Both the position numbers and the translations under genes were made by a program. From a virus (Duplodnaviria > Caudoviricetes): a stretch of 56,547 nucleotides of DNA. The notes under the pieces are model-generated. The model searched no databases. It saw only the letters and a list, made by a program, of their open reading frames with translations, and was not told the origin of the DNA. Where the stretch lies: the IMG/VR virus record IMGVR_UViG_3300010401_000040, positions 1 through 56,547 of that record; one strand, given 5' to 3'. Positions within the stretch are counted from its first letter, which is position 1. Each line of letters starts with the position of its first letter. Of this stretch, positions 3,129-51,546 are shown piece by piece.

Positions 3129-3575
3129 TTAGTAGAGCCTGAGGTGCCTGCGTCCGCAGTGACCACAGGTCCGGTTCTCGTCTTTAAGGGCACGACTGAT
3201 CCCGAAGTGGAGACAGTCCGTGCACATGTAGCGCTTGATGCGCTTCAACCGCTGGGCGCCCTTGTCAGTCAGCCGCAGTTTGTAGCCGCCACCCGCCGAG
3301 CTAGCCTGACCAATCGGGATGCTCCGCTCGATTATCCCGTTACGAATGGCGTAGCGGGTAATGCTGCCGATCCAGGTCACCATGTGGCCGCGCACCGTCG
3401 CGCGTCGGCCACGCTGGTTCCTCGGCGATATCTTGCGATAGATGGCGTGCGGTGGGATCATGGCCTCGAAGTTTTCCCACACCTCAAAGACGTGCTTCCA
3501 CTGCTCAGTGCCGATTGACATAACGATCAAGTCCAGCCAGTGGATCTCAGGATCGCGATTCTCACGCTTCTTCAT
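3129..3575 (-). CDS. basic, probably DNA-binding protein with C-terminal Zn ribbon
   Basis: CTDC...CGHC; wing-like GGGYKLRLTDKG; start taken at MKKREN. Confidence 0.6.
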   Translation of the reverse strand: MKKRENRDPEIHWLDLIVMSIGTEQWKHVFEVWENFEAMIPPHAIYRKISPRNQRGRRATVRGHMVTWIGSITRYAIRNGIIERSIPIGQASSAGGGYKLRLTDKGAQRLKRIKRYMCTDCLHFGISRALKDENRTCGHCGRRHLRLY

Positions 3576-4518
3576 TGGAAAGGGCGTGGAGTTTTTGCTC
3601 CAACGCGCGTTGAAGAACAATTCCACGCTGCCTCTCCGACTCCGACTTGCACCCCATCTGGCGCATGCTTTTCTTATTGCGCAGGAGAATGTCCAGGGTC
3701 TGGAGCATCCGCAGGTAACGCGCCCACAGGCGGTCCTGTTCAGTCCCCTTACTGAGCACCACCTTGGAGCCTGACTTGAGGCCTTGAGCGTATTCCTCGA
3801 TCACACCGATCTGGGCCTTCTCGGAAGCCTTTTCCTCGGTGATGGCATCCACCAGGGCGTGGACCTCGCCGCCTTTCATGCGCTCGCCTTCAGCCAGGCG
3901 CACCGCCCTCTCAACTACTGAGTCGATCGGGATCGTGTTTAACTTCACGATAGAAGTGCGGGGCAGGTTGTCGGCCTTAACTCCCAGGCTTTTGAAGCGC
4001 TGCAGCGCCAGCTTCACACGGTTGTTGACGTGCAAGGTGTGGACGTGGACGCCGAACTTGTCGGCGGCTTCATTGGGTGAGAGTTTGTAAATCGCCATCG
4101 CGTTAATGGCGTCCTGGATTGCCTCCTCTTTCCCTTTTCGCAGGCCGTGCTTGCGGTTGAGTGCCTTGGGCAGGAGATCGATCACCATCGGGTCTTTAGT
4201 CTCCACCACGTAGAAGCCCATGGATTTCTGGTTGAACTCCTCAGCCGCTTTGCGCGTGTGGTTTCCGCCTAGCACCAGGTATTTGCCGGTGCCGGGCTGC
4301 TTAACCGCCACCCCACAGGGGAAGTCATCCCCCGACTCCATGCTGGCCAGGTAGTCAGTGACCACCGTGTCATCCAGCCGCTGGCGCCGGGCGTGGTTGT
4401 TGGAACTCAATTGCTCATCGATCTGGTTGAAGTTTATCTCTTCAACCTCCCACTTGAGGCCCCACTCACGCAGGGTTTTTTCGATTGCATCCGATTTTAA
4501 CCATTGTATCTTTCGCAT
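3562..4518 (-). CDS. ParB/Srx-like N-terminal domain protein with HTH
   Basis: R-x-x-L-D..V..Y...M..GD.FP...V......Y.VLGGNHT pattern (degenerate ParB motif); HTH-like SPNEAADKFGVHVHTL; start at 4518 after GAAAGGAC RBS. Confidence 0.7.
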   Translation of the reverse strand: MRKIQWLKSDAIEKTLREWGLKWEVEEINFNQIDEQLSSNNHARRQRLDDTVVTDYLASMESGDDFPCGVAVKQPGTGKYLVLGGNHTRKAAEEFNQKSMGFYVVETKDPMVIDLLPKALNRKHGLRKGKEEAIQDAINAMAIYKLSPNEAADKFGVHVHTLHVNNRVKLALQRFKSLGVKADNLPRTSIVKLNTIPIDSVVERAVRLAEGERMKGGEVHALVDAITEEKASEKAQIGVIEEYAQGLKSGSKVVLSKGTEQDRLWARYLRMLQTLDILLRNKKSMRQMGCKSESERQRGIVLQRALEQKLHALSNEEA

Positions 4519-4537
4519 TGTAACTGTCCTTTCTGCT

Positions 4538-4581
4538 AAAGTCCGTGGCTCTCGCCTGGTGGGCAAAAAGCCACGGACTTT
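4538..4581. terminator. 13-bp-stem hairpin between JAB and ParB-like genes
   Basis: AAAGTCCGTGGCT...AGCCACGGACTTT; followed by a T-rich tract on the plus strand and a short one on the minus strand. Confidence 0.65.
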
Positions 4582-4597
4582 CTTTGTTTAGTGTTTA

Positions 4598-5716
4598 CTA
4601 ATCCATCATGTGCCCGTGCCAACCCAGTTGGCGGGCAGCTTCTTCTTCTTCCTCTGCCTTGGTCATCATCCGGCACTCCGCCTGGTAAGAGGCAATGAGC
4701 GGGGTCAAGTCCAGATCGGCGGGCACTTCCTCCCACATCTCCCCGACGCTGACGTCATACTTCTCGATCGCATCCAGCAGCAGCTTGGTGTGGTTCTGGC
4801 CGGTTATGTCTTCAGCCAGTTCGCCAATGAAGTTGGCAACCTGTCGCTGCGCGTTCTCGTTCTGGATTTCAGCACCCAGCACCTCGACAGCGAACATGCC
4901 TACGGCCCGGCGTGCCCGTTGCCAGGCAGGTATCGAATTCGCGTGTGACCGCCATTTGTCTGCACCACCTTGGTAACTGTGCCCCCCTGGGCCATACGAG
5001 CCATACGACGGCGAGCCCGTCGAGACAACCGAGCCGGGAAAGGTGGGTTGTTTAACCTCGATTAGGTTCTCTTTCCACTGGTCCGGGAAACCAGGGATGG
5101 GGTCAGGTTTAGTGGTCATTTGGAATCGCGCCACTTTGTCCCAAAGGTCAATCGGGATGATGCGCGAGATGTTCTCTCCTACATCCCAGAAGCGCGCCAG
5201 GTCGGGCTCAAAGCAGAACCCGCCCAGGTAGAACCGGGCATGCAGGTCGTAACGGGGCGAGCCCAGGCTGCCAATGGTGATGTGCAGCCCGTCGATTTTC
5301 TCCTCGTTGTTCTTGTCGGTGCCCGACTGAAAGGCACTCATTGAACAGTGATGGTGAACGGTGCCAAAGTAGACCCAGCCATCAGCGTCGCTAAACTGCG
5401 CCCGCTGTTTCTTGGTCTCGTCGGTGTCCAGTTCCTCGGCACTCATCCCCGTCTTAGCCTTCTGTGGGAAGGCCCAGGCTGCCCAGCGCCGCTCTTTCAT
5501 ATTAACAAAGAGCCGCACCTGGGACTCGCTGTGGGTGGTGTCGTAGGTCCATTGGAAGAACCTCAGGACCTGGCACCACACCTCGGGATCGATCCGCGGA
5601 CCCAGGTAGGACAATTCCGCTGTGGCGTTCTTAATCTCGTGCTTGAAGTTGCACGAAATTAAACCGGGGAACTGTTTACTGGTCGTTATCTCCGGCTGAT
5701 AGGTGAGTAGTTTCAT
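4598..5716 (-). CDS. JAB/MPN+ (JAMM) metallo-isopeptidase, prokaryotic Ub-system type
   Basis: Intact JAMM motif H-x-H-x7-S-x2-D (HHHCSMSAFQSGTD), upstream Glu (SESQV), downstream DGLHITIG; long C-terminal extension. Confidence 0.9.
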   Translation of the reverse strand: MKLLTYQPEITTSKQFPGLISCNFKHEIKNATAELSYLGPRIDPEVWCQVLRFFQWTYDTTHSESQVRLFVNMKERRWAAWAFPQKAKTGMSAEELDTDETKKQRAQFSDADGWVYFGTVHHHCSMSAFQSGTDKNNEEKIDGLHITIGSLGSPRYDLHARFYLGGFCFEPDLARFWDVGENISRIIPIDLWDKVARFQMTTKPDPIPGFPDQWKENLIEVKQPTFPGSVVSTGSPSYGSYGPGGHSYQGGADKWRSHANSIPAWQRARRAVGMFAVEVLGAEIQNENAQRQVANFIGELAEDITGQNHTKLLLDAIEKYDVSVGEMWEEVPADLDLTPLIASYQAECRMMTKAEEEEEAARQLGWHGHMMD

Positions 5717-6303
5717 CGTTCAAACTCTCCTCTCGCGTTAAGGTTGAGCCACGCTCGCAAGCGCAACCGCACCGAGGCGGTGTCGGCTACCGCGCACGCA
5801 TGGTCTTCGGGTTCACCATCGCAATGTTCGTAGGTGTCGTCTCTGCCCTCAGGGTCCATGTCCGGCCAGTCGTTTTCACGGGCGTCCTCGCGCAACTCTT
5901 CAAACACCCTGTTAGCCAGTTCGTCGAAGCCCTCCTGTTCCAACCGCGCCTCTTCGATTATCTGCAACATGCGCGCATTGCTGATGCTCTCTTGCGATGA
6001 GCCACGCCGTGATCGGCTGTAACGACAGTTGCCCGTCTCAATGTCGGTATGGATTATCGTCGCCGTGATGGCGTCGGCTTCATCCACTACCACGCTACTG
6101 GGCTTAAAGTTGGTCTCGATCCAATCTTTAATCTTTTCGTAGGTGTCGGCCTCGGGTGGCACCGGCTTTTTGACCGCGGCTAATACCAGCGCACGGTTGG
6201 TTTCGTTCTGCGGTGCTGCCTGGATCAGCGCTATTACTGAGCCTTTGAGCACCTGCTGTATTTGGCTAAGCCGCTTGGGCTCGGCTAGTTTCTCCATAAC
6301 CAT
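5713..6303 (-). CDS. acidic hypothetical protein within Ubl operon (196 aa)
   Basis: GAAAGGAC RBS; ATGA coupling to JAB. Confidence 0.75.
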   Translation of the reverse strand: MVMEKLAEPKRLSQIQQVLKGSVIALIQAAPQNETNRALVLAAVKKPVPPEADTYEKIKDWIETNFKPSSVVVDEADAITATIIHTDIETGNCRYSRSRRGSSQESISNARMLQIIEEARLEQEGFDELANRVFEELREDARENDWPDMDPEGRDDTYEHCDGEPEDHACAVADTASVRLRLRAWLNLNARGEFER

Positions 6304-6976
6304 CTGTCCTTTCTAGTGCGTCCTTGATTCGGAAGGACTGCAATTTTGTGAGGTTTGCTACCAGTCGATAGGGGAGTGAGGGCAGCGTCTCACTCTCGAG
6401 TTTAGGCGCCTCCAAATGCCAGAGCACAAAGAGGTGCATAGCTAGTGAAGCGGCCAACGAATTGGCGCTTACTAGCTGCGGGTTTTCTTCCTGGGCCTCG
6501 CCGGTGCAGCCGATAGCTTCCCCCATCGGGTCGCCATCGGTGCCGGTCAGGATCTCTGGGAAGTAGGTTCTCGGGTCCAAGGAACCACCACGCCATTGTG
6601 GCTCGTAGTAGTAGGCCTCAGCCGAGTGTGTTTCATTGGCGGCAATCAGGACCCGGCAGCCGCGCATATCAGCCTCATTCAAGGCCGCGCGCCGTGCCGG
6701 GTGATTGTCCACCAGGGTGATGAGCCAGTCTTCAGGTTGCACCGTGAAGCGGCCCATGGCGAAGTATTCCGGACGCGACATGCAGCCATAGAGGCCAGCC
6801 AAGGCGATTGCCTTGTTCTGGCCCAGGTGCTCACGCCGGAATAACTGACGGTTCAGGTTCTTTTCCTCGAGCCTGTCCCCATCTACCACAACCACCTTTC
6901 GGGGTCCCAGTAGGAGGCATAGGGAGGGAGTAAGCCATGATCCGACGCCGCCTGCGCCGATAACGTAGGCATTCAT
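6266..6976 (-). CDS. E1-like/ThiF-family adenylating enzyme
   Basis: GAGGVGS Rossmann motif, DGDRLEEKNLNRQ, NKA, VDNHPARR, candidate catalytic Cys in IGCTG followed by PQLVSAN; lacks the MoeB/ThiF Zn-binding CxxC pairs. Confidence 0.92.
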   Translation of the reverse strand: MNAYVIGAGGVGSWLTPSLCLLLGPRKVVVVDGDRLEEKNLNRQLFRREHLGQNKAIALAGLYGCMSRPEYFAMGRFTVQPEDWLITLVDNHPARRAALNEADMRGCRVLIAANETHSAEAYYYEPQWRGGSLDPRTYFPEILTGTDGDPMGEAIGCTGEAQEENPQLVSANSLAASLAMHLFVLWHLEAPKLESETLPSLPYRLVANLTKLQSFRIKDALERTDGYGETSRAQAA

Positions 6977-7431
6977 GGTTCTTCTTCCTCCTCCTCAGGC
7001 TCACGATCATCATCAGTCATCGCGATGTTTAACCCGGCAAGCAGTGGGTCCAGCCCCTCGGGTGGTGGGTTAGCAACATCCATTGAGTAGTGACCGCCGT
7101 GGATCATGTCCCAGGTGTTGCGGAACACCTCGCGAACCGGGTCGGCATCACCATTGATTCGCCGGTTGTAGTTGTCTCTGCACTCACAGCAGAGTTGCCT
7201 GAAGGCACGCTCGCTAGCCGAGCCGATCAGTTGGATAGCAAACTCCCGATCGACGATCATCATGTAAGCGGCGATATACTCGTCGATGCAGGCGTTGTGG
7301 TCATTTGGTGAACCAAGAACCAGTTGGCCGTTGGCCTGTTTGTGCAACTTGATTCTCTCAAAGAGGTTGTTGGCGGTGTTACGCAGCTGTGGGCAATCCG
7401 CCAGTGCCTCGAATAGTTCAGGGTGTCTCAT
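6973..7431 (-). CDS. helical hypothetical protein within Ubl operon (152 aa, acidic tail)
   Basis: ATGA overlaps on both sides. Confidence 0.75.
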   Translation of the reverse strand: MRHPELFEALADCPQLRNTANNLFERIKLHKQANGQLVLGSPNDHNACIDEYIAAYMMIVDREFAIQLIGSASERAFRQLCCECRDNYNRRINGDADPVREVFRNTWDMIHGGHYSMDVANPPPEGLDPLLAGLNIAMTDDDREPEEEEEEP

Positions 7432-8129
7432 ACAACAAGTGCTGAGATGTTGGTGGCCACCTTGGTGCAGTAGGTGGTCCAGGGTTTAGCTGGAGCCATG
7501 GTTTGGAACCCGTCCTTGTTTTGAGTGACCCGGAAGAAGTTCTGAGTCACTTCGACATTACGCCACAGATCGGCGTTGTATTGGGCCTGGTCGAAGTTCT
7601 GGAGGATCTTTGCGACCAGTTCGTGGCTGGTAGGTGCCGCCACTGCATTGCGCAGGCCAGTGCAGCACGAGCAATCCTCATGCACATTGGCAATGGGCAG
7701 GCGCCAGGCAATGCCTTTATCGTCGATGGCAAAGAGCCACGCACCGCCAAAGACTTGATCATTAGCAGCAGTCGACTGCACGCACAAGCGCAGGTTCATC
7801 AGTGGGGCCCAGCCTAAAGGGCTCCAGGTGACGGTCATCACCGGGTCAGTCCCTTGTGATCCGAAGTTGGGCACTAGAATTTGGTTTCCGTTCAAGTGCC
7901 ACGGCGCCCGAATCATCAGGCGGTTTAGTGCGATGGAGTAGATAGTGAGGCCCTGGCCAATGCCCAGGCCGACTTTCATTCCATCAATTTCAAAGACTGC
8001 CGGGGCCTTGAACTTCACATCCCGAGCGATCTTGGTGACCAGGTCGTTTCCGATCGCGACCTCGTATTCATTGATGTCCCTCCGCAAGACGGCTCCGTCG
8101 TTGCGGATGAGATATTCTCTGGTAGGCAT
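7428..8129 (-). CDS. prokaryotic E2-like conjugating enzyme (Prok-E2 family D / PRTRC protein B-like)
   Basis: WRLPIANVHEDCSCCTG matches P..NV....C.G; downstream F.QAQYNADL resembles F..S.FN.DL; context next to Ubl, E1 and JAB. Confidence 0.75.
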   Translation of the reverse strand: MPTREYLIRNDGAVLRRDINEYEVAIGNDLVTKIARDVKFKAPAVFEIDGMKVGLGIGQGLTIYSIALNRLMIRAPWHLNGNQILVPNFGSQGTDPVMTVTWSPLGWAPLMNLRLCVQSTAANDQVFGGAWLFAIDDKGIAWRLPIANVHEDCSCCTGLRNAVAAPTSHELVAKILQNFDQAQYNADLWRNVEVTQNFFRVTQNKDGFQTMAPAKPWTTYCTKVATNISALVV

Positions 8130-8143
8130 ATGTTGTCCTTTCC

Positions 8144-8181
8144 AAACGAAAGTCTCCCACCCCTTCTACGGAGTGGGAGAC
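8144..8181 (-). terminator. intrinsic terminator-like hairpin between Ubl and E2
   Basis: Minus strand GTCTCCCACTCC-GTAGAA-GGGGTGGGAGAC-TTTCGTTT (12-bp stem, one G-U). Confidence 0.7.
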
Positions 8182-8199
8182 AATCGTTAGGCCTAACGA

Positions 8200-8421
8200 T
8201 TAGGCAGCTTTCTGGTTGCACCGGGTCTCAAAGACCACAGTGGCCCCGTTGGGGACCTCGACGTCGCTGCCCATCTCTACGCCGTTGATCAATGCACGGA
8301 CGTTGTCGCCCATGCCGAACACGGCCTTCACGTTGGAGTCACTGATCAGCTGTCCGATCTTGGTGCCCTCAGACACGGTTTTGGTGAGGGTCTCTACTCC
8401 GTAACGCAGTGTTACTTGCAT
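8200..8421 (-). CDS. ubiquitin-like (beta-grasp, ThiS/MoaD-like) protein, 73 aa
   Basis: beta-beta-helix pattern MQVTLRYG..., ALINGV, VPNGATVVF, flexible tail ETRCNQKAA; GAAAGGAC RBS defines the start at 8421. Confidence 0.82.
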   Translation of the reverse strand: MQVTLRYGVETLTKTVSEGTKIGQLISDSNVKAVFGMGDNVRALINGVEMGSDVEVPNGATVVFETRCNQKAA

Positions 8422-8568
8422 TTGTTTTGTCCTTTCAACTAACAGTCGTGTGCGTGGGTTTTTAATCCACATTTTGGTTTTGGTTCGTTCCCTGCACACG
8501 TAGGGAACGTCAGCACAACGCTGACTACTGCTGCCTGAAGGCACAGAACTCCAAGCAGCAGGTGTCAG

Positions 8569-8596
8569 AGTGTAGCAATATTGAGACGCAAGGCAA
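8569..8596 (-). promoter_or_regulatory. sigma70-type promoter of the Ubl operon
   Basis: TTGCCT-N16-TACACT with extended -10 TG (TGcTACACT). Confidence 0.6.
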
Positions 8597-8599
8597 GCC

Positions 8600-13489: not shown

Positions 13490-13758
13490 CGCGGTATCAC
13501 CAGCGAGAGGCTCGACTCCTGCACGAGCCACATGTCGTTGCCCGCCTCGACTTTGGAATTGATTCGAAACTGGTCGAGGACCGCCAGTGCCCCTGGCGTT
13601 ATGGCCGGGTCGCACTTGGGACCGACGGCAATAACGACGTAATCGATCGCCCCGCGGCTGTAGGGGTCGTAGGTCTCGGGGAACATTATCCCGCCGTCGG
13701 ACTTAGCTTTGGGCGGCAACTGCCCCAGGAGGACATTGTGGCCGGTTGGTCGGATCAT
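13486..13758 (-). CDS. groES: GroES/Cpn10-like co-chaperonin
   Basis: IRPTGHNVLL (P..D.V), mobile loop KSDGGIMFP, VIAVGP, C-terminal LVQESSL. Confidence 0.78.
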   Translation of the reverse strand: MIRPTGHNVLLGQLPPKAKSDGGIMFPETYDPYSRGAIDYVVIAVGPKCDPAITPGALAVLDQFRINSKVEAGNDMWLVQESSLSLVIPR

Positions 13759-14791
13759 AGTGCACAAACTCACGTATTTGGTTAATGGTGAACTCCCGCA
13801 TGGACTCGTTCTTCTCAACATGACGCGCGATATACCAGTCTGCCGCTGCCCTCACAGCGGTCTTGGTGTCGTAACGAGGGGCCCATCCCAGTTTCTCCTT
13901 GGCCTTATCTGAACAGAGTGAAAGTGATCGGTCTTCCGGACAAATCTCGTCCCTCTTTAAGAGCGAGCAACCCAGTCTTCCGGGCCATCGTTCCTTGAAT
14001 TGGAGCGCCACCATGTAAACCTGAGCTAAGGGGCCGTCGGGCCCGAAGTTGAAGGCCTCGGGAATAAAATTCTCTCCCAGTTTCAGGTAGCCACAGATGC
14101 AATCCAGGACGTGCTGCCAGGGCCGCAAGTAAAACGGCTGGCGCAAGTCGACGTCCTTGCCTTCAGAGAAGGCCCGAAAGCAATCCGGGATCAACCGGTT
14201 CACTGCGTAGTCACCGCCGCCGATCACATTACCGGCGCGCGCGGTGGAGACGTTTAGTCCGTAGCTGTGGCGGTAGGCATCGCAGGCCAATTCCGCGGCC
14301 ACCTTGCTCATTGAGTAGGGGGTAGACCAGGAGAAATCGTCGGTCTCCTCGCAATTCTGGACGTGGGCGTCGTAGACCTTGTCGGTCGTTATTACCACCA
14401 CGGGAATCTTCAGCTTATGCCGACGCACCGACTCAAGGACACTCAAGGTCCCCATCGTATTGGTCTCAATCGTCGAGAGGGGAGATTCGAAGGCCTCACT
14501 CACGATCGGCTGGCCCGCCAGGTGGAAGATAATGTCGGGCATCACCTCCTCGATCTGGTAATAGACCGCGGCCAGGACGCGAACATCCATCCAGCCGTCG
14601 CGCTCAAAGGTCCCCTGCCCAATCACTTCAAATAGATTTGGTGAGGGGAACGGCGGGTGGGAGATCCCATAGACCCTGGCGCCAAGTTGGTTCAACCATA
14701 GCGAGAGCCATCCTCCCTTGAACCCTGTATGGCCCGTTACCATGACCTTTTTGCCCTCGTAGAAGCCGTTAAATAGGTCGAGCTCCCTCAT
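13703..14791 (-). CDS. rfbG: CDP-glucose 4,6-dehydratase (extended SDR)
   Basis: VTGHTGFKGGWLSLWL, FHLAGQPIV, TTDKVY, YSMSK, RAGNVIGGGD, RPWQHVLD. Confidence 0.92.
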   Translation of the reverse strand: MRELDLFNGFYEGKKVMVTGHTGFKGGWLSLWLNQLGARVYGISHPPFPSPNLFEVIGQGTFERDGWMDVRVLAAVYYQIEEVMPDIIFHLAGQPIVSEAFESPLSTIETNTMGTLSVLESVRRHKLKIPVVVITTDKVYDAHVQNCEETDDFSWSTPYSMSKVAAELACDAYRHSYGLNVSTARAGNVIGGGDYAVNRLIPDCFRAFSEGKDVDLRQPFYLRPWQHVLDCICGYLKLGENFIPEAFNFGPDGPLAQVYMVALQFKERWPGRLGCSLLKRDEICPEDRSLSLCSDKAKEKLGWAPRYDTKTAVRAAADWYIARHVEKNESMREFTINQIREFVHYDPTNRPQCPPGAVAAQS

Positions 14792-14792
14792 G

Positions 14793-15206
14793 TCAGCAAG
14801 TCGGCACTGGGACGATTTGCCCGCCGTGCTTGCTCACCATGTGAGAACGCCACGGCCCCGGCCTGGTGCTGATTATTGAGGTGCAGAGCGGGCACTGGGC
14901 CTTGGCTGGAGGCGCAACCTGTGGCGGAGCCTGGACCTCAGCTGCCGCCACAGGGCCCTGCGTTACGGAATTGGTGACGCTACTCGTGACGCTCTTTAAT
15001 TGATCCTCTAACTCGCGGATGCGCTTCAAAAGATTGACTAGCTCGTGCTGCGCCTTCATCCCCTCCAAGGCCATCTGGCGAATCTCGGCCAGCTGCGTCC
15101 TGGCCAGGTGCGGGTCGGGCAGAGCCGACATAAACTCGTCCAGCGTCTGCTCGCGCAATCGCCCTGGAATTCCTGGCACCTCAATGGTCTTGGGTTCTTC
15201 GGTCAT
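14793..15206 (-). CDS. coiled-coil protein with C-terminal C2H2-type Zn finger
   Basis: CPLC-x12-H-x4-H. Confidence 0.7.
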   Translation of the reverse strand: MTEEPKTIEVPGIPGRLREQTLDEFMSALPDPHLARTQLAEIRQMALEGMKAQHELVNLLKRIRELEDQLKSVTSSVTNSVTQGPVAAAEVQAPPQVAPPAKAQCPLCTSIISTRPGPWRSHMVSKHGGQIVPVPTC

Positions 15207-15388
15207 GTCTTTATTTGCGGGGTTTGGGTGAGCCAGATCATCAGCTTGTTAAACACACTCATACGCACGGGCTCGCCGTGGATCAGGCGGTGAAGGGTGG
15301 AGTGGTCGCAGCCTATCTCCCTGGCGACTGTCCGGTAGGACAAGCCGTTGACCTTCATGTAGGCCTCCAAGAGTTCACCAAGTTTCAT
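15203..15388 (-). CDS. XRE/Cro-like HTH regulator (61 aa)
   Basis: LSYRTVAREIGCDHSTLHRLIHG. Confidence 0.85.
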   Translation of the reverse strand: MKLGELLEAYMKVNGLSYRTVAREIGCDHSTLHRLIHGEPVRMSVFNKLMIWLTQTPQIKT

Positions 15389-15394
15389 TGGTGC

Positions 15395-15464
15395 ACTTTA
15401 GACACAGTTGTCTCAGAACGTCAACAGCAAATAATTGACTACCGGTTGGGGTATGGGTTAAAAA
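15395..15464. promoter_or_regulatory. back-to-back divergent promoters, both apparently leaderless
   Basis: Minus: TTGACG-N18-TAAAGT-N6-ATG. Plus: TTGACT-N18-TAAAAA-N6-ATG. Inverted repeat AGACA-N4-TGTCT in the minus-strand spacer. Confidence 0.65.
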
Positions 15465-15470
15465 CACCAC

Positions 15471-16142
15471 ATGCGATTGCGTGATAGGAACAAGTTCCCG
15501 CCGGGGGGCTTCCGCTTTTATGTCCCTGAGACGCGCTGGAGCATCCAGCCATGGGTGAGTTTCGATGTGGCAGTGCAACAGATTATCCAACACCGGCAGG
15601 CTAATCCCTTCCTCACCCAGAGCAAAGGCTGGAGCACTGACCCTGGCATCGTGGCCGACGAATTGGACGCCTTCAATGCCGCGGTCTGCGAGCAGATGCG
15701 GTGGATGGATTTTATCGGGGAGGGAGGTGGCCCTGCGGGCCCCCCAAAAGCGATGAGCCACCAGTCACCATCCAGCCGAAGCGCTCAAGTTGTTGCGGGC
15801 GTTAAGACGATTGCGGCCTGGGAGTTGGCCGGTGGCAACGTGGTCGATCGAGCTCTAGCTAACGCGCGCGCTAAGACCTGCTCAGCCTGCATCAAGAACG
15901 AGTCGGGCGACTTACTCTCCTTCTTCACCGAACAAGCGGCGCGGCTCATCAAACTCCAGCTAGAGACTAAGAACAACATGAAGCTATCGACTGACTTTGA
16001 TCCGCTGTTAGGCGTCTGCTCGGCCTGCGGCTGCGTCAATAAGCTGAAGGTGTGGGCGCCGCTGGACATAATCTTGAAAGAGATGAAGCCCGAGACCAAG
16101 GCAGCCCTGGCAGCCAACTGCTGGGTGCTGAACGAAAAATGA
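15471..16142 (+). CDS. hypothetical protein with C-terminal Cys cluster
   Basis: CSAC, CSACGC and terminal CW. Confidence 0.75.
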   Translation: MRLRDRNKFPPGGFRFYVPETRWSIQPWVSFDVAVQQIIQHRQANPFLTQSKGWSTDPGIVADELDAFNAAVCEQMRWMDFIGEGGGPAGPPKAMSHQSPSSRSAQVVAGVKTIAAWELAGGNVVDRALANARAKTCSACIKNESGDLLSFFTEQAARLIKLQLETKNNMKLSTDFDPLLGVCSACGCVNKLKVWAPLDIILKEMKPETKAALAANCWVLNEK

Positions 16143-17797
16143 CCCCACAATGCTGGATGTTTTCTTACACGCCCTACCAGGGTGGAGGTAATATGCGCAG
16201 CAACCCCAAGATCGTTGTGCGGCGCACTGCCGCCATTGGCGACGCGCTGGCGGCGACCTGTGTGGCCGACCGGCTCCACGAGCTAGGCTATGAATGCGAA
16301 TTCCAAACCCATACCAACATTCACTGCCTCCTGCGCTATTGCCCCAGCATCAGTTCGCTGGCGAATCCAGGCGGATATGCCCACGTTGACCTCGACCGGT
16401 CCTACGAAACCAACCCAGCGAGGAGGAATTTACATTTCAGCGAGATGTTTATGCAGCGAGCAGACGAGACTCTGCGACCTTACGGAATATCGCTTGGGGG
16501 CGCGCTTAATTGTCGTCCTAGCCTTCGAATACCTCGACAGCTAAACCAGACCGCCATTGCCAAGTTTAACTCCCATCCCCGGCCCTGGATCTTCTTTGTG
16601 CCCCGCTCCAACACCTACAACGTGCGGCAGGTCCCTGACACCTTCTGGTCGGCCTTGGCGGAGCAGTTGCCCGGCACCAAGTTCTGGCTAGGCACCCACG
16701 GCCCCTGCGCAGGGACAGTCGACTTGGAGGCGCGCCACTTGGACAACGTGATCACCTGGCTCTCGGCTGCCGACCTGGTCGTCTCGGTCGACACCGGTCC
16801 TTTGCACATCGCCGCGGCGTTAGGTAAACAGATCGTCGCCTTGGGCCAATCCTCGAGCCCCGACCTCCACATCTCCGACCAACGGGACTTTGAGACCGTA
16901 TGGCCGGAAGGGAATTTGAATTGCCTCAACTGCCAGGAGAACATTTGCAAGGTCAATTATTACATGCCCCCTTGCCAGAATTTCGACGCTGTTGCGGTAG
17001 CGGTGAAGGCGAACCAAAAAATAACAGGTAGACGGAATGACGACGTCTCTGCCGCTATCGCCATTTATCAACCTGAGGCCAACGTCCTCAACCGGTGCCT
17101 GGAGTGCCTCTTGGACCAGGTGCAGGAGATTGTCGTGTGCGTCGATAAGGCGGGGAAGATCCCCAGCAACGCGCTGCAGCACGGCAAGATCCGCTACGTT
17201 CACCATCGCCAGTTCAACGTCGGCTACGGGCGCAAGATGAACTTCGCCACTCGCCACACGAGCGGTCGCTACGTGCTGCAGGTTAATGACGACGTCTTCC
17301 TAAACCCAGGAGCAGTCGCCAAGATGAAGGAGTGCATGGCGCCAGGGATCGGCATTGTCAGCTGCTTGCTTCGATACCCTGATGGAACCATCCAGCATGC
17401 CGGTAAGGTGCGCTCTCCCGGCCAGCGCGGCTGGGGCCACATCAACCACAAGCAGCACCTGCCGGATTTCAAGGACGTGACTGAACAGGAGAACACCTGC
17501 GGGGCCTGCTGGCTGGTCGATCGCGACGCCCACTTCCAATCCGGCGGTTACGACGAGCGGTTCTTTATTTACGCCGAAGACGACGACTACTGCCTGCGGA
17601 TGCGCAAGACCGGTTACCGGATTCTCTTTACCCCGCACGCCTCGGGCGTCCACCTGGAACACCAGTCGACCACTAAGACCGGTCCTATCATCGATCACCT
17701 GAACAACTCCAACCGGGTCTTTGGTCAGCTGTGGGGCCCCTACCTGGAATGGAACAGCAACCGAATCCCTGGGAATTTTGACTATTGTAAGGTTTAA
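16139..17797 (+). CDS. fused glycosyltransferase: GT9 (heptosyltransferase-like) + GT2
   Basis: RTAAIGDAL and SVDTGPLHIAAALG (GT9); NDDV, GACWLV, YDERFFIYAEDDDYC (GT2). Confidence 0.88.
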   Translation: MTPQCWMFSYTPYQGGGNMRSNPKIVVRRTAAIGDALAATCVADRLHELGYECEFQTHTNIHCLLRYCPSISSLANPGGYAHVDLDRSYETNPARRNLHFSEMFMQRADETLRPYGISLGGALNCRPSLRIPRQLNQTAIAKFNSHPRPWIFFVPRSNTYNVRQVPDTFWSALAEQLPGTKFWLGTHGPCAGTVDLEARHLDNVITWLSAADLVVSVDTGPLHIAAALGKQIVALGQSSSPDLHISDQRDFETVWPEGNLNCLNCQENICKVNYYMPPCQNFDAVAVAVKANQKITGRRNDDVSAAIAIYQPEANVLNRCLECLLDQVQEIVVCVDKAGKIPSNALQHGKIRYVHHRQFNVGYGRKMNFATRHTSGRYVLQVNDDVFLNPGAVAKMKECMAPGIGIVSCLLRYPDGTIQHAGKVRSPGQRGWGHINHKQHLPDFKDVTEQENTCGACWLVDRDAHFQSGGYDERFFIYAEDDDYCLRMRKTGYRILFTPHASGVHLEHQSTTKTGPIIDHLNNSNRVFGQLWGPYLEWNSNRIPGNFDYCKV

Positions 17798-17825
17798 TAA
17801 TGTTACACAATCTCAATATAAGGAG

Positions 17826-17847
17826 GGGGATACGTCTCCCCCTTTTG
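17826..17847 (+). terminator. intrinsic terminator
   Basis: GGGGGA-TACGTC-TCCCCC-TTTT in an AT-rich gap. Confidence 0.55.
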
Positions 17848-17879
17848 ATGCTATGTATTGTGATTTTTTAGAATAACTT

Positions 17880-18641
17880 ATGACTACTCTTGGCGGAAAT
17901 ATCTGCATACGAAACGGGTTCCGGCTGGACTACTGCTGGCGTGAAACGGTCAAGTCGCTCCTGGAGGTGTGCGATAAGGTGGTCATTTGCGACTGCGATT
18001 CAGACGACGGGACACGCAAATGGATCGACGACTGGGCAGCGACTGAGTCGCGGATTGTCCCGGTCAACTTTCCCTGGACCAACCCCGAGCGCACCAACCA
18101 ATGGTGGCCCGAGTGGATCAATTACTCGCGGCAGCACCTGGACACCGACATGCACCTGCAGCTGGACGCCGACGAGCTAATCCACCCCGAGGACCACGAG
18201 CAAATACGCAATGCGCGCGACGCCAAGGCGACGCTCTACTTCCAGAGGCTCAACTTCTGGTCGGACCCCAAGCACTTGATACCGGAAGGCTATTGCTGCG
18301 GCACAAAGGTCCTCAAAATGGCCCCGGCCAATATGCCCATCCCGAGTGATTACCCCTACGAACCGGCTAACTCGACCTGCGCCCAGGCGGTCGATTCGAA
18401 CATCCGGGTATTCCACTACGGCTTTATCCGGCACCGCGAGCAGTTCTTTGAGAAGGCCAGGGAAGTCCACCGCATCTGGAGCGGCGCCATGGACGAGCGC
18501 CTGGCGCGCGCTGAAAAGTTTGAAGGCAACTGGGCGACCATGCCGGGAGTAACCGGCTGGGAAGATCGCATCGTTGACTACACGGGAAACCATCCGCCAC
18601 TCATTCACCAGTGGCTAAGAGAGAGGGGATATGAAATATAA
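17880..18641 (+). CDS. GT-A fold (GT2-like) glycosyltransferase
   Basis: DCDSDDGT, LDADE (DxD), FHYG. Confidence 0.82.
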   Translation: MTTLGGNICIRNGFRLDYCWRETVKSLLEVCDKVVICDCDSDDGTRKWIDDWAATESRIVPVNFPWTNPERTNQWWPEWINYSRQHLDTDMHLQLDADELIHPEDHEQIRNARDAKATLYFQRLNFWSDPKHLIPEGYCCGTKVLKMAPANMPIPSDYPYEPANSTCAQAVDSNIRVFHYGFIRHREQFFEKAREVHRIWSGAMDERLARAEKFEGNWATMPGVTGWEDRIVDYTGNHPPLIHQWLRERGYEI

Positions 18642-19158
18642 GTCGCACGTCCGCGTTGCCAAAGATATCTGCTTTACCTGGACTGAAGATGAGGTGCTCA
18701 ACTATCTATGCGAGCTAGCCTCTAACTCCAGGGTGATGGTTGAGTCGGGAACCTACATGGGAGCCAGCGCCTACGCGATGCTCTCCGCCGCCCCGCGCGA
18801 CGCGCACCTGTGGTGCATCGACAAGTTCATGGTGCCCGGCACCGAGCACGTCACACGGCGCAACCTCAAGTTCTGGATCGACCACGGCCAGTGCGAACTG
18901 ATCATTGGCGATTCGGAGCGCGGCGCCGACATGTTGAAACACATGCTCGGACAAGTGGACCTGATCTTTGTTGACGACGGCCACGCCGAAGAGGACGTGA
19001 TGCGCGACATTCGCTGCCTCCAGCCGCTCCTTAAGCGCGGCGGCATTATGGTCGGCCACGACTTCGACGTCCCGCACAACGACGTGGCCCGTGGGGTGAT
19101 TCGCAGCGGCATCCCTTACGACGTTCCCATTCCCAGGCTCTGGCGCTACATCCGGTGA
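18631..19158 (+). CDS. class I SAM-dependent methyltransferase (Methyltransf_24-like)
   Basis: ESGTYMGAS, DLIFVDDGH, LKRGGIMVGHD. Confidence 0.88.
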   Translation: MKYKSHVRVAKDICFTWTEDEVLNYLCELASNSRVMVESGTYMGASAYAMLSAAPRDAHLWCIDKFMVPGTEHVTRRNLKFWIDHGQCELIIGDSERGADMLKHMLGQVDLIFVDDGHAEEDVMRDIRCLQPLLKRGGIMVGHDFDVPHNDVARGVIRSGIPYDVPIPRLWRYIR

Positions 19159-43925: not shown

Positions 43926-46900
43926 GTGCCGACTTTTGAAGCCGAATTGTCTGATGGCCGGGTTGTAACAGTTGAGTCCGATCATGAGCCAACTGAAAAA
44001 GAAATCCTATCGGCGGTCGGCAGCCAAGGCGCGGCGCCACAAGAGAACCAAGCGCAAGATCCAACCTCGGCAGTTGGTGCCGGACTACGGTCCGCGGCTG
44101 AAGGCATTGCACCAGGCGCAGCTGCGGCGGCGGCGTTTGCACCGTCTGCGGCGGTTGGGGCTCCTTTTGCGCCAGAAACGTTCGGAATTGCGCCGCTTGC
44201 TACTGGGGTCGTAGGTTCGGCCCTGGCGGGTGGCGCGGTAGCACTGGGACAGCGGAAGCTGCTGGAGTATCTGGCTCCGGGATTTCTGCAGAAACTGGAG
44301 CAGGGTCAGAAGGAACACCCGCTAGCTTCCGGAGTGGGTCGAGTCGCCTCGGCCCTGCCCAGTTTTGAGTTTTCCCCCGGTCAGACCATTCGCGGCGTTG
44401 CGGCCCTGCCTAAGATCATCAGAGGCACCGCCGAGGCCGCTGAGAAGAAGGCTGCCACTTCGCTTGCCGCCCAGATTGGTGCGCAGACTGGCATCACTGC
44501 CGCCCAGACCGGCGTCCTGGAACACCGGCTGCCCACACCGACCGAGTTGCTGGAGGCTGCCGCTACCGCCGCTACGTTCGGCCACCCGAGATTTTCCTTC
44601 CCCATACCGCAATCACTACAACGACCATATGCCCGCCAAAACCAAGAAGCAGCAGCGCTACATGGGAATGTGCGCTCACAGCAAGAATCCACCGGCCAGT
44701 TGCCCGCCCAAGAAGGTGGCGCGGGAGTTCAGCCACGCCCCGAAAAGCTGGCCAAAGCAACACAAATACCACTGAGCGGTGCTGAGCCACCACCGGTCGC
44801 CGGTCAGGGCATCCCGCGGATCACCGGCACCGACGAGCTAGGTTATACCCTTCACTTCCAGGGCAAGAGCGAGGCTGGGTTCCCTAGCCGCGCTGAGGCC
44901 GAGAAGGCGGCCCAAGAGATCTGGGATGGCGTTCGACCCATGGCCGGGGACGTCAGTGACGACCTGGCTGAGAAGATGGAACGCGAGGCCATCAGCGAAG
45001 GCGAGAGGCAGGGTGCCCCAGTTAAGTCCGTGGAGAAGTTCGGAGACGAGGACGCCAACGTCCCCTTCAGCCCGTTCTTTATGAAGGCGACGGGGACCGG
45101 TGTTGAACTGAAACGCTCCACCTTCCGCGAGTGGATTCAGGACCTGGTCAACGACGGATTGAATGAGGACCAGATCCGGTTGGCAGTCCACAGCCGCATT
45201 GGTGAGGAGAAATTCCACAACGACGTGATGGCGGTGGCCAGCGATAAGGAGATCGCCCAATACTCCCAGGACCTTACCGCCGCCGAGAAGGCGATCGAGC
45301 GCCGCATCTATGGCGTGCGCAACCTGACCGACCTGCAGCTGGGACACGAGGCGATACGCCGCCGGTTGCAGCAGGCTCACGGCATGACGCCCAGCGAGTT
45401 TGCTGAGACTGTGGGCAAGGAGCACGTCACTATCCGAACGTTGGACGCACTAGGCCGAATCATCCGACGTTCGCGTGAGGCGTTGGGGACCAAGGCGGCG
45501 GGACGCCAGGGAGTGCTCTACAAACGCGCACTGACTAATATTGAGTATGCCAAAGCGGCGGTCTCGGGACGCCAACAGCCCGGCGCAGCCAGGCGTGAGC
45601 GAGAGACAACTCCACCTGAGTTAGCTGACCTGGAGGGGGCAAGGAAGGTTCCACTAAACCTTGGATCTTCCGAATATTTCAAACTGATAGACCAGATGGA
45701 GAAGCGAGGTGTGTCCGTTGACGGATCTCCCCTGAAGCGAGAGGACATGCCTGCGTTTTACGAGGCTGCTGAGGAGATACTTCTCAATGGATACGACTAC
45801 GCCCTTGAGATGGCTAGGGTCCAGGCCGATAACTACCCAACGGAGCCTACTCCTCAAGGAAACTCCACCCGAGATCTTGTCCACGCGATCGAACTGCTCA
45901 AAGGAAAGGACGTCAGGCTCGGCCCACTCATCCCATTCCCTGGATGGAAGAGCGAGACTCAGTTGCGGCTGGATTTGCCGAGTGCCGCGCGCCGCCGCAA
46001 AGACGAGCCCGGCCAGGGCGAGATGTTCGGCAAGCAACCACTCTCAGCCCCGCGCCTGATTAAGGCCAGCGACCCCGAGGCCCGGAAGATTCCCGAAGGC
46101 ACCACGCTGCCGCAGTATAACGCGAACCAGATTGCTGAGATGGCCCAGCGCGTGCTCCAGAGCGAGAAGCCCAGCTTCCGTTCCTTCTACGGATGGGCCC
46201 GGCGCAACCTCGGAGACGTGCCTACTGGACCGATGTTCAGTGTCTGGATTGATGCGGTAAATAATAACCTCCAAGGAAAGCCTGGCGCTGAACTCAATAA
46301 GATGGTGGAGCAGCTGGGGCTCCAGCACCGGGTCTACCCGTTCCAGAAACGTGTTGGCACTAAGCCGCTGGAGGGCACCTCGACTGAGTTTACGCCTGAG
46401 CAACTGAAGGCTGCTGGTCCCCTGCCGGGCGTCGTTTACAATCGCGTTGATATCCCCGACAGCCAGGCCGTGCCGCATGACCCGCGTGATCTGCCGCCGC
46501 AGATGGTGACCGACATTCGCAAGGGGGTTGAAGAGAAGTGGAAGAAAGAGAACCTGCTCCAGGATGAGCGGCTGATTGAGGCTGAGAAGAATAAGGCGGT
46601 GGAGCAGGCCCGAAAGGATTTCATGAAGGCCTTCCCGCCTGAGTTGCGGGACGCGATCATTGACCGTCGCGAGGCCATCAAGCGGGGCCAGAAGCTGCGC
46701 ATGAAGGCCATCAGCGCCATTTTCCAGAAGCTGATTGAGGAGGGCTACCCTGACACCTCCGACCTGTTACGCAAGGAGATTGCAATCGACGACCTGGACT
46801 GGTCCAACCCCAACGCCAAGGAAGGCGTGTGGCGGGATATCAGAGGCGATGAGGCTAAGAACGTTGATAAGCTAAACGAAATTTTCAGGGACGAGGCGCG

Positions 46901-51185: not shown

Positions 51186-51546
51186 CGATCTCGGTGTGCT
51201 CGTCTATCCGATGATGCACCTGCACCTGGCGCACGGTAAGATCGATATCAGCTGCGGTGTCGTTAGGTATCACCCCCAGGTATCTTAGGGCATCTACAAA
51301 CCATTTAACGCATGGGTTGTCGGGGTCTAGGAGGCGGCAGCGGTAGCTAGTGACAGTGACCTTGCTACGGCCTCGTGGGTTCTGGACTTTTCCCGCATCC
51401 GCTCTTTGAGGCTCATTGCAAAGAGGGCGTTCAAGGACGGAACTGGATAGTCCACAATCAGTCGGAGAGGCAGGCTTATACCACTCTCCCTTGGAGTTGA
51501 TTCGGTATCCTTTGGTCCAAAGAATGGAGGTTGTTTCATTTGTCAT
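51166..51546 (-). CDS. RusA-like Holliday junction resolvase (catalytic part)
   Basis: RLLDPDN..VK.FVDAL...GVIPND matches the RusA D.DN..K...D.L...G...DD pattern. Confidence 0.75.
   Translation of the reverse strand: MTNETTSILWTKGYRINSKGEWYKPASPTDCGLSSSVLERPLCNEPQRADAGKVQNPRGRSKVTVTSYRCRLLDPDNPCVKWFVDALRYLGVIPNDTAADIDLTVRQVQVHHRIDEHTEIVIEAAE
51327..51539 (-). CDS. overlapping ORF carrying the RusA N-terminal PSxN strand-helix
   Basis: LRLIVDYPVPSLNALF....ERMREK in the +1 frame. Confidence 0.55.
   Translation of the reverse strand: MKQPPFFGPKDTESTPRESGISLPLRLIVDYPVPSLNALFAMSLKERMREKSRTHEAVARSLSLATAAAS

What the first reader, a model, noticed from the sequence alone, without database searches (positions are those of the whole stretch)
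3562..8596. Complete phage-encoded ubiquitin-like conjugation operon (Ubl-E2-X-E1-Y-JAB, then ParB-like)
Seen: six co-oriented, mostly translationally coupled genes behind their own promoter. They encode a beta-grasp protein, an E2-like protein with the P..NV...C.G motif, an E1/ThiF enzyme with intact adenylation motifs and a candidate catalytic Cys, and a JAB protease with an intact JAMM motif. Known: this domain set defines prokaryotic Ub-like systems (PRTRC cassettes on mobile elements; BilABCD antiphage defence conjugates a Ubl to virion proteins). Inferred: here it sits among the early genes of an apparently lytic phage with no thiamine or Moco genes, so the phage may tag host or rival-phage proteins, or counter host Ubl/CBASS Cap2-Cap3 conjugation.
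Basis: partly seen in the sequence, partly recalled or inferred. Interest (0 to 1): 0.95.

Follow-up and report, generated by a model that had tools for sequence, protein, structure and literature searches.

The report
Phage ubiquitin-like tagging cassette, PRTRC-related
An uncultured soil phage carries what looks like its own ubiquitin-style protein-tagging kit (tag, activating enzyme, carrier enzyme, trimming protease and two unknown helpers), a very divergent relative of the catalogued but never-tested PRTRC cassette; what it tags is unknown.

Summary

The closest named kind is PRTRC, but no curated PRTRC cut-off is met and the order differs. X and Y match nothing. The tag ends in Lys-Ala, not Gly, and is often followed by 1-14 extra residues or a second Ubl, which suggests a processed precursor. 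A terminator-like hairpin follows the Ubl gene in 24 of 24 loci.

"ParB-like" is not confirmed: it is an HTH protein outside the conserved core. The promoter is not supported either.

This scan has noted PRTRC-like cassettes on phages and other mobile elements before, and a 2026 paper records canonical PRTRC in cultured phages. Verdict: a new variant of a known, untested kind. The target is unknown.

The parts
8422..8599 (-). 178-nt non-coding leader upstream of the Ubl gene; presumed promoter region, unverified
   Evidence: This is the longest gap in the gene row. The consensus scan found no sigma-70-like site here. The sequence was read.
8200..8421 (-). Ubl: 73-aa ubiquitin-like beta-grasp protein ending ...N-Q-K-A-A. 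The family-wide tail is E-T-x-x-N-x-K-A.
   Evidence: The model has pLDDT 91.2 with a bb-a-bb-b order of elements and a floppy tail. Foldseek against the PDB gives NEDD8 and ubiquitin at TM 0.71-0.75 and rmsd about 2 A. Of 25 Ubl domains, 13 end exactly at K-A, 10 carry 1-14 more residues or a second Ubl, and 2 lack K-A. L002 encodes a tandem di-Ubl.
8152..8181 (-). Terminator-like GC-rich hairpin (12-bp stem, then TTTCGTTT) between the Ubl and E2 genes
   Evidence: The window site was found. A strong hairpin lies at the same place in the window and all 23 related loci tested (24 of 24), with MFE z of -3.8 to -8.1 against 100 mononucleotide shuffles. The stem sequences differ between loci.
7428..8129 (-). 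E2-like protein, 233 aa; candidate catalytic Cys156 in the motif P145-x2-N148-V-x6-C156-x-G158
6973..7431 (-). X: 152-aa protein of unknown family with an acidic tail; fast-evolving cassette partner
   Evidence: Homologues lie between E2 and E1 in 19 of 26 loci by iterative HMM search. The conserved pattern is L..L..CP...E...LL...Q...A...P. Pfam, NCBIfam and PHROGs give no match.
6266..6976 (-). E1: minimal ThiF-type adenylating enzyme, 236 aa; invariant Cys157 in G-C-T-G
   Evidence: Pfam ThiF scores 49.6 bits against a cut-off of 28.1. PRTRC_ThiF scores 37.7 bits against a cut-off of 144.75. hhalign against PRTRC ThiF gives probability 98.9 and E 3.7e-17. The invariant residues are listed.
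5713..6303 (-). Y: 196-aa protein of unknown family; conserved N-terminal L....P.N...R...W.E domain, a G-containing middle and an acidic stretch
   Evidence: Homologues lie between E1 and JAB in 18 of 26 loci. No family match. The Atlas search gave nothing usable.
4598..5716 (-). JAB/JAMM metallopeptidase-like protein, 372 aa: catalytic domain about 1-230, then a variable C-terminal extension
   Evidence: E64, H121, H123, S131 and D134 are invariant in 51 sequences. Sub-threshold Prok-JAB hits occur in 6 of 14 relatives and PRTRC_A hits in 11 of 14. hhalign aligns the HxHx7Sx2D motif with PRTRC_A but is not significant (E 0.074 and 0.26). The family has 536 clusters at 90% identity.
3562..4566 (-).
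   Evidence: The database form starts at Met17 and is 318 aa. HTH_psq passes its cut-off in 3 of 4 homologues scanned. No ParB match was found. The gene is absent at this position in L001. Among the 26 loci it was found only in L011, and there upstream of the cassette.

Best explanation
This is a phage-encoded ubiquitin-like activation and conjugation module, a distant sister of the PRTRC cassette of plasmids, ICEs and some temperate phages.

Proposed working:
1. The 73-aa beta-grasp protein is made in excess. A conserved terminator-like hairpin follows its gene.
2. It is often made as a precursor, with a few extra residues or a second Ubl after an invariant ...N-x-K-A.
3. The JAMM peptidase trims it to expose the C-terminal Ala, and probably also removes the tag from targets.
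4. The minimal ThiF-type E1 adenylates that carboxylate, possibly passing it to its invariant Cys157.
5. The tag moves to Cys156 of the E2-like protein and from there to lysines of unknown targets.
6. X and Y, which always accompany the enzymes, are adaptors (an E3-like role) or the substrates themselves.

The cassette sits in the replication/early arm, so it should act inside the infected cell and not in the virion.

Shown here: the folds, the motifs, the conservation and the synteny.
Inferred: every chemical step, the processing, and conjugation to proteins.
For: Ubl:
- Ubiquitin/NEDD8-like model, pLDDT 91.2, TM 0.71-0.75.
- The tail E-T-x-x-N-x-K-A is conserved. Of 25 domains, 13 end exactly at K-A and 10 run on by 1-14 residues or into a second Ubl. 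This is the pattern of processed Ubl precursors.
- Canonical PRTRC_C ends K/N-G, with Lys before the last residue in 3 of 4.

E1:
- Passes Pfam ThiF.
- The adenylation residues and C157 are invariant in 18 sequences.
- hhalign against PRTRC ThiF gives probability 98.9.

E2-like:
- P145, N148, C156 and G158 are invariant in 88 sequences.
- Prok-E2_D matches 15 of 88 members.
- The Cys motif aligns with that of PRTRC_B at E 1.2e-4.
- In the model (pLDDT 95.9) the motif lies in the loop between the last strand and helix 168-181.

JAB:
- The JAMM residues are invariant in 51 sequences.
- PRTRC_A hits occur in 11 of 14 relatives and Prok-JAB hits in 6 of 14, all sub-threshold.

Cassette as a whole:
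- Fixed order in 26 loci.
- Overlapping stop and start codons.
- Hairpin after the Ubl gene in 24 of 24 loci.
Against: - No biochemical step is shown.
- The C-terminus is Ala, not the Gly of nearly all known Ubls. Two of 25 Ubls lack K-A altogether.
- The window's own E2, JAB and Ubl hit no Pfam, NCBIfam, PHROG or PADLOC model.
- JAB profiles found no MPN structure by sequence, and hhalign against PRTRC_A is not significant.
- No E3 and no target is identifiable.
- A complete phage sharing the helicase module (56% identity) lacks E1, E2 and JAB. The cassette is therefore dispensable for that backbone, although that phage shares little else with this one.
Confidence: 0.65

Rival explanations
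1. Same enzymes, defensive role. The cassette is an accessory exclusion or defence module carried by the phage. Like Bil systems, it would tag proteins of competing phages (or host defence proteins) and not serve the phage's own replication.
For: It is absent from one complete phage that shares the helicase/primase module. PRTRC-type cassettes travel on many kinds of mobile elements. Bil systems conjugate a Ubl to a phage tail protein (abstract seen in the listing).
Against: No PADLOC defence model matches the E2, JAB or Ubl, and the E1 matches CBASS E1-E2 only over the Rossmann loop. In four related phages the cassette keeps one place, with E1 7-9 kb upstream of the helicase on the same strand. 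That looks like a stable part of the early arm, not a shuffled island. No test of function was possible.
Confidence: 0.2
2. Sulfur-carrier system. The beta-grasp protein is a ThiS/MoaD-type carrier that the E1 adenylates and converts to a thiocarboxylate, to thiolate a cofactor, tRNA or the phage DNA. There would be no protein conjugation.
For: The E1's best curated matches include ThiS adenylyltransferase ThiF (3.8e-10). One Atlas neighbour cluster of the Ubl carries Pfam ThiS in 15% of its members (score 0.91, a lead only). The phage encodes sugar- and methyl-modifying enzymes elsewhere.
Against: An E2-like protein with an invariant Cys and a JAMM peptidase are always present. There is no C-terminal Gly-Gly. 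No rhodanese or cysteine desulfurase family was seen among the ORFs scanned (34 short ORFs not scanned). The Ubl model matches ubiquitin and NEDD8 first. Tandem di-Ubl precursors fit conjugation systems better.
Confidence: 0.07
3. Non-covalent or self-contained role. The Ubl, X and Y form a regulatory or partition-type complex on the phage DNA, as has been guessed for the 'ParB/ThiF partitioning cassette'. The E1, E2 and JAB would modify only cassette proteins, or be degenerate.
For: The authors of PMC13366799 treat PRTRC as a putative partitioning cassette (passages read). Here an HTH DNA-binding protein follows the cassette. X and Y have no enzymatic signature.
Against: All catalytic residues of E1, E2 and JAB are invariant across 18-88 sequences, so the enzymes are under selection as enzymes. 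The HTH neighbour is not conserved with the cassette. No ParB domain was detected.
Confidence: 0.08

Closest known systems
PRTRC (ParB-Related, ThiF-Related Cassette; NCBIfam PRTRC_A, _B, _C, _E, _F, ThiF, ParB) on plasmids, ICEs and some temperate phages. It probably equals the fourth operon type of Iyer, Burroughs and Aravind 2006 (PMC1779556, section 14 read); that equation is taken from earlier scan notes and was not checked by accession.
   Same: Both have a small Ubl, an E2-like protein with the motif P-L-x-N-[VI]...C-x-G, a JAMM peptidase with HxHx7Sx2D and a roughly 240-aa ThiF-type E1. These are the nearest named families for three of the six proteins. In both, the Ubl ends in Lys plus one small residue. 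Both are carried by mobile elements. The function of neither has been tested.
   Different: No curated cut-off is met: ThiF scores 37.7 against 144.75 bits, PRTRC_A at most 22.1 against 101.8, PRTRC_B matches 1 of 88, and PRTRC_C, E and F match none. The order here is Ubl-E2-X-E1-Y-JAB, against ParB-E-C-(F)-B-A-ThiF in four plasmids. X and Y show no likeness to E or F. The tag ends in Ala, not Gly. The JAB is 372 aa with a long tail, against 209 aa. No ParB is present. A terminator hairpin follows the Ubl gene here but is not clear in the 4 PRTRC loci.
BilABCD (bacterial ISG15-like) and Bub operons: bacterial Ubl-E1-E2-(DUB) systems
   Different: No sequence-family link was found. PADLOC gives nothing for the E2, JAB or Ubl. 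Bil is a host defence system, whereas this cassette sits in a phage's early arm. What I know of Bil and Bub comes from abstracts in the listings and from recall.
Type II CBASS Cap2 (E1-E2 fusion) and Cap3 (JAB)
   Same: The E1 Rossmann loop matches PADLOC E1-E2 models (best 3.1e-7, residues 2-60) and NCBIfam 6A-MBL cap2_3 (5.8e-6). I recall, without testing it here, that Cap2 accepts a C-terminal Gly or Ala on its substrate.
   Different: There is no CD-NTase. E1 and E2 are separate proteins. A dedicated Ubl is present. The match covers only about 60 residues.
ThiS-ThiF / MoaD-MoeB sulfur-carrier pairs
   Same: A beta-grasp carrier is paired with a ThiF-family adenylating enzyme.
   Different: An E2-like protein and a JAB are present. 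There is no Gly-Gly end, and no sulfur-transfer or cofactor genes were seen among the ORFs scanned.

Membership tests
PRTRC system (NCBIfam curated models) | PRTRC_ThiF (TIGR03736) at its curated cut-off of 144.75 bits | tested here: not met
   The window E1 scores 37.7 bits, E 1.4e-9. All 11 relatives scanned score 27.7-45.5 bits. The homology itself is clear: hhalign probability 98.9, E 3.7e-17.
PRTRC system (NCBIfam curated models) | PRTRC_B (TIGR03737) / Pfam Prok-E2_D (PF14460) E2-like protein | tested here: not met
   The window protein has no hit. Among 88 family members, Prok-E2_D matches 15 (best 6.6e-5) and PRTRC_B matches 1 (5.2e-4). hhalign against 4 PRTRC_B sequences gives probability 55 and E 1.2e-4 over the Cys motif only. 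This is a distant relative, not a member.
PRTRC system (NCBIfam curated models) | PRTRC_A (TIGR03735) JAB protein at 101.8 bits | tested here: not met
   The window protein has no hit. Eleven of 14 relatives score 15.7-22.1 bits. hhalign gives E 0.074 and 0.26, with the JAMM motifs aligned.
PRTRC system (NCBIfam curated models) | PRTRC_C Ubl, PRTRC_E, PRTRC_F and PRTRC ParB present | tested here: not met
   NCBIfam gives nothing for the window Ubl, X or Y, nor for 20 Ubl, 15 X and 17 Y relatives. hhalign of Ubl, X and Y against C, E and F from 4 plasmids gives E 0.19-0.95. The neighbour at 3562-4566 is not a detectable ParB.
Ubiquitin-like beta-grasp fold | bb-a-bb-b beta-grasp topology with a free C-terminal tail | tested here: met
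   The model has pLDDT 91.2 and elements E2-7, E10-15, H22-35, E41-45, E48-50, E61-66, with a tail of low confidence. Foldseek against the PDB gives 144 matches at E<=1e-3, topped by NEDD8 and ubiquitin at TM 0.71-0.75. This is a predicted model, not a solved structure.
Conjugated Ubls (ubiquitin, SAMP, BilA and the like) | C-terminal Gly (usually Gly-Gly), exposed directly or after processing | tested here: not met
   The conserved end is N-x-K-A, and 13 of 25 domains stop at Ala. The pattern of variable extensions after a fixed residue is the same as in processed Ubls.
UBC / E2 fold | Helix plus four-stranded meander, an active-site Cys in the following loop, and C-terminal helices | tested here: inconclusive
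JAB/MPN+ (JAMM) metallopeptidases | E...HxHx7Sx2D zinc site | tested here: met
   E64, H121, H123, S131 and D134 are invariant in 51 sequences. The fold itself was not modelled. Pfam Prok-JAB stays below its 25-bit cut-off (best 17.2 bits, 6 of 14 relatives), and 1 of 120 listed homologues carries a precomputed PF14464.
ThiF/E1 adenylating enzymes (Pfam PF00899) | Gathering score, plus the nucleotide-binding and Arg/Lys/Asp adenylation residues | tested here: met
   The score is 49.6 bits against a cut-off of 28.1, though the match covers only residues 4-60. G7, G10, G12, D32, D34, N40, R43, Q44, K55, D90, N91 and R95 are invariant in 18 sequences.
   There is no ParB family match for the window protein or for 4 homologues, and a 15-sequence profile finds none in the PDB. 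hhalign against PRTRC ParB gives E 0.067 over 34 columns, which is not significant.
Known anti-phage Ubl-type systems in PADLOC 2.0 (CBASS Cap2/Cap3) | Match of the E2, JAB or effector components | tested here: not met
   Only the E1 residues 2-60 match E1-E2 models. The E2, JAB, Ubl, X and Y give nothing relevant. The library dates from 2023 and may lack Bil and Bub.

The most novel reading that the evidence does not exclude
A widespread lineage of soil phages of about 55 kb, perhaps infecting Verrucomicrobiota, runs its own ubiquitin-like conjugation pathway. The tag is activated at a C-terminal alanine after JAB trimming. Early in infection the pathway covalently tags host or phage proteins to reprogram the cell or to disarm defences. 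This would be a virus-encoded, complete E1-E2-DUB-Ubl pathway in the bacterial world with a non-glycine tag, and X and Y would be a new kind of substrate adaptor.
Probability: 0.4. Interest if true: 0.85.

Novelty: new variant of a known kind. Interest (0 to 1): 0.58.

Why it matters
According to the one paper I read on the point (PMC13366799), PRTRC-type cassettes have been catalogued for years without any functional test. A library search for 'PRTRC' found 45 papers, and none of the 20 listed is a functional study by its title or abstract.

This variant is compact (six genes, 3.8 kb). It is abundant in metagenomes: 572 clusters at 50% identity for the E2 and 536 clusters at 90% identity for the JAB. 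It lies on complete phage genomes.

It offers unusually clear handles for a bench test:
- a fixed ...K-A processing point with natural precursor forms, including a di-Ubl;
- single invariant cysteines in the E1 and the E2;
- a built-in expression asymmetry, the terminator after the tag gene.

If the tag is conjugated, three things follow. Ubl conjugation in the bacterial world would not be confined to host defence. A Gly end would not be obligatory. The function of the whole PRTRC class would become testable.

Tried and rejected
- Complex prediction (E1 with Ubl) was not available, so nothing was folded.

PDB sequence-profile searches that found nothing relevant:
- JAB with 3 and with 51 sequences, E2-like, Ubl, and the HTH protein.

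Structure searches with the E2 model:
- Foldseek against the PDB gave only chance-level rows, E>=0.26.
- BFVD gave 3 uncharacterised proteins of uncultured phages.

Protein atlas:
- For Y there was no usable hit.
- For the Ubl, the nearest clusters are viral hypothetical proteins plus a weak ThiS lead.

GenBank phages (50,697 records, tblastn):
- E2: no match at E<=1.
- JAB: nothing below E 0.2.
- E1: only Rossmann-loop hits.
- This variant was therefore not found in deposited phage genomes at single-sequence sensitivity.

Clamp-docking idea from earlier scan notes:
- The C-terminal tails of JAB, Y, X, E1 and E2 across the loci show no conserved QL[SD]LF-like end (by eye).

Extra domains of longer relatives:
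- The extra N-terminal parts of long Y forms and the C-terminal parts of JABs have no Pfam match.
- The extra 400-aa ORF and the 321-aa ORF of L002 have none either.

Sequencing runs:
- No RNA holder is listed. The holders are soil and rhizosphere DNA metagenomes, and read laying was not used.

Other:
- Canonical PRTRC loci show no clear terminator after PRTRC_C (z -0.1 to -2.5).
- Literature searches for a phage-encoded E1/E2/JAB system of this type found nothing beyond the PRTRC record in PMC13366799. bioRxiv supplements and subscription journals were not visible.

Full report
**What the window is.** The window is a whole IMG/VR virus record of 56,547 bp, classed as having direct terminal repeats and 100% complete. 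The exact terminal repeat is 123 bp. No tRNA gene was found.

Genes run on the minus strand from about 15.2 kb down through the genome end to about 51.2 kb. They run on the plus strand from 15.5 to 51.2 kb. The minus-strand arm holds:
- a ResIII/DEAD helicase at 52560-54188;
- a weak primase/helicase-like ORF at 51543-52355;
- a phrog_1366/AAA_24-like protein at 119-1552;
- an NAD-dependent epimerase at 13703-14791.

The plus-strand arm holds glycosyltransferases, a methyltransferase, fn3- and Ig-domain proteins and a 2419-aa ORF. Most large ORFs match no PHROG or Pfam family, so this is a very divergent phage. The cassette lies in the non-structural arm.

**Checking the observation.** The E2/X, X/E1 and Y/JAB junctions overlap by 4 nt and E1/Y by 38 nt. 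The Ubl and E2 genes are 70 nt apart.

Only the E1 is recognised directly: Pfam ThiF at 49.6 bits (cut-off 28.1) over residues 4-60, and NCBIfam PRTRC_ThiF at 37.7 bits (cut-off 144.75). The other six proteins hit nothing meaningful in Pfam, NCBIfam or PHROGs.

**Relatives and synteny.** A word-based search found one homologue of the E2-like protein. A full HMMER scan with a three-sequence profile found 572 cluster representatives at E<=1e-3, of which 386 are at <=1e-10.

Related DNA came from:
- 8 viral contigs;
- 18 contigs of MAGs. Thirteen of the 18 are labelled Verrucomicrobiota or a member of it. The others are Methylumidiphilus, Hydrogenedentes, Schlesneria, a 'Klebsiella' bin and Terriglobia.

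Binning of phage contigs is unreliable, so the host remains a guess. Near-identical DNA occurs in soil and rhizosphere metagenomes.

My iterative HMM search over stop-to-stop ORFs of 26 loci (25 contigs) found every detected component in the order Ubl-E2-(X)-E1-Y-JAB on one strand, with no exception. X was not detected in 7 of the 26: the two short loci L004 and L027, and L002, L007, L009, L011 and L012, where E2 and E1 are 240-380 nt apart. L002 has a 123-aa ORF in that gap. The 334-aa 'ParB-like' protein was found only in L011, and there upstream of the cassette.

In four related viral records the E1 lies 7-9 kb upstream of the helicase on the same strand. One complete phage with terminal repeats has a 56%-identical helicase but no E1, E2 or JAB. 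It shares only three replication-module genes with the window in the 21 kb compared.

**The tag (Ubl).** With a 21-sequence alignment, AlphaFold2 gives a confident model: mean pLDDT 91.2, with strand-strand-helix-strand-strand-strand and a low-confidence tail. Foldseek finds 144 PDB chains at E<=1e-3. NEDD8, ubiquitin, a Bacteroides ubiquitin-like protein and Caldiarchaeum ubiquitin top the list, at TM 0.71-0.75 and rmsd about 2 A over the full length.

The C-terminus was not expected:
- G8, G36, G38, G47, E65, T66, N69 and K71 are invariant, and A72 nearly so.
- 13 of the 25 Ubl domains end exactly at ...N-T-K-A. Many of these come from closely related contigs.
- 10 continue for 1-14 residues. 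The window has one extra Ala. L002 has a second complete Ubl after K-A-A-D-E.
- 2 lack K-A.

A fixed residue followed by variable, disposable extensions or tandem copies is the hallmark of Ubl precursors. I infer that the mature end is Ala. Canonical PRTRC_C proteins from four plasmids end in K-G (three) or N-G (one).

**The E2-like protein.** W102, P145, N148, C156 and G158 are invariant in 88 sequences. Each member was scanned on its own:
- 15 of 88 hit Pfam Prok-E2_D, best 6.6e-5;
- 1 of 88 hit PRTRC_B.

hhalign aligns the motif with P-L-x-N-[IV]...C-x-G of PRTRC_B. The E-value is 1.2e-4 against four sequences and 1.3e-3 against one.

**The E1.** The nucleotide loop, D32/D34, N40-x2-R43-Q44, K55, D90-N91, R95 and C157 (in G-C-T-G) are invariant in 18 sequences. 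hhalign against PRTRC ThiF gives probability 98.9.

**The JAB.** E64, H121, H123, S131 and D134 are invariant in 51 sequences. This is the JAMM pattern E...HxHx7Sx2D.
- Relatives give sub-threshold hits to Prok-JAB (6 of 14) and PRTRC_A (11 of 14).
- 1 of 120 listed homologues carries a precomputed PF14464.
- Sequence profiles find no solved MPN structure.
- hhalign against one PRTRC_A lines up the motifs without significance.

**X and Y.** Both are conserved partners without any family match.

**A regulatory feature.** The Ubl-E2 spacer folds into a GC-rich hairpin with a stem of 10 or more base pairs in the window and in all 23 loci where the spacer could be taken. The MFE z is -3.8 to -8.1 against mononucleotide shuffles. 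By eye, most are followed by a T-rich run and three are not. The stems differ in sequence. I read this as a leaky terminator or 3' stabiliser that gives more tag mRNA than enzyme mRNA. It is not evident after PRTRC_C in four plasmids.

**The 'ParB-like' neighbour.** It has 16 close homologues of 60-81% identity, and the database form starts at Met17. HTH_psq passes its cut-off in 3 of 4 homologues scanned. No ParB domain is detectable. The closest relative has an unrelated ORF at that position. It is a DNA-binding neighbour, not part of the conserved set.

**Comparison with what is known.** The nearest kind is PRTRC. Four plasmid examples show the order ParB-E-C-(F)-B-(A)-ThiF. It probably corresponds to the fourth operon type of Iyer et al. 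2006: a Ubl with a C-terminal Gly, a helical protein, an E2-like protein, a JAB and an E1 (PMC1779556, section 14 read).

A 2026 paper records canonical PRTRC in Burkholderia gladioli phage AB2, in BgVeeders33 and in Ralstonia phage Dina. It states that the function has not been studied (PMC13366799, passages read).

Earlier notes of this scan list 76 findings of PRTRC-like cassettes on phages and other elements. None of them is sequence-similar to this E2. The present cassette fails every curated PRTRC cut-off, has another order, other accessory proteins and an Ala end. It is best filed as a new, abundant variant of that kind. Against 50,697 GenBank phage records it has no tblastn relative for the E2 or the JAB.

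**Mechanism and odds.** I put 0.65 on a working Ubl activation and transfer module with JAB processing at K-A. I put about 0.4 on conjugation to proteins outside the cassette. The biological role (replication control, host takeover, counter-defence or exclusion of rivals) is open. The defensive/exclusion reading (0.2) shares the same chemistry. The other two rivals are a sulfur-carrier reading (0.07) and a non-covalent or self-contained reading (0.08). No step of the chemistry has been shown.

Noticed in passing
window 8152-8181 (minus), and the Ubl-E2 spacers of L002, L004, L007-L009, L011-L015, L017-L028 and L030: A strong GC-rich hairpin, mostly followed by a T-run, sits right after the Ubl gene in 24 of 24 loci, with different stem sequences. 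It looks like a conserved leaky terminator that would give excess tag mRNA.
   Followed up: partly
L002 1586-2056: This relative encodes a tandem di-Ubl of 156 aa, with two copies joined by K-A-A-D-E. It also has an extra 400-aa ORF (4126-5328) between E1 and Y, and a second protein whose C-terminus resembles the Y N-terminal domain (7174-8151).
   Followed up: partly
window 43926-51185 (+): A 2419-aa ORF at the end of the plus-strand arm has no Pfam or PHROG match. It could be a giant virion or tail protein of an unknown kind.
   Followed up: no
window 13703-19158: A sugar-modification cluster lies in a phage genome: an NAD-dependent epimerase/dehydratase, a 581-aa fusion of GT9-like and GT2 glycosyltransferase domains, a second GT2-like protein and a Methyltransf_24 protein. 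It may modify the host surface or the virion or DNA.
   Followed up: no
G003 (record of L035), C1:9373-11004: The helicase homologue of a complete related phage is read through one in-frame TGA. This could be a sequencing error, a split gene or recoding.
   Followed up: no
window 8130-8145 and 8422-8440 (minus): The Ubl and E2 genes are both preceded by the same AAAGGACAA-type ribosome-binding stretch.
   Followed up: no
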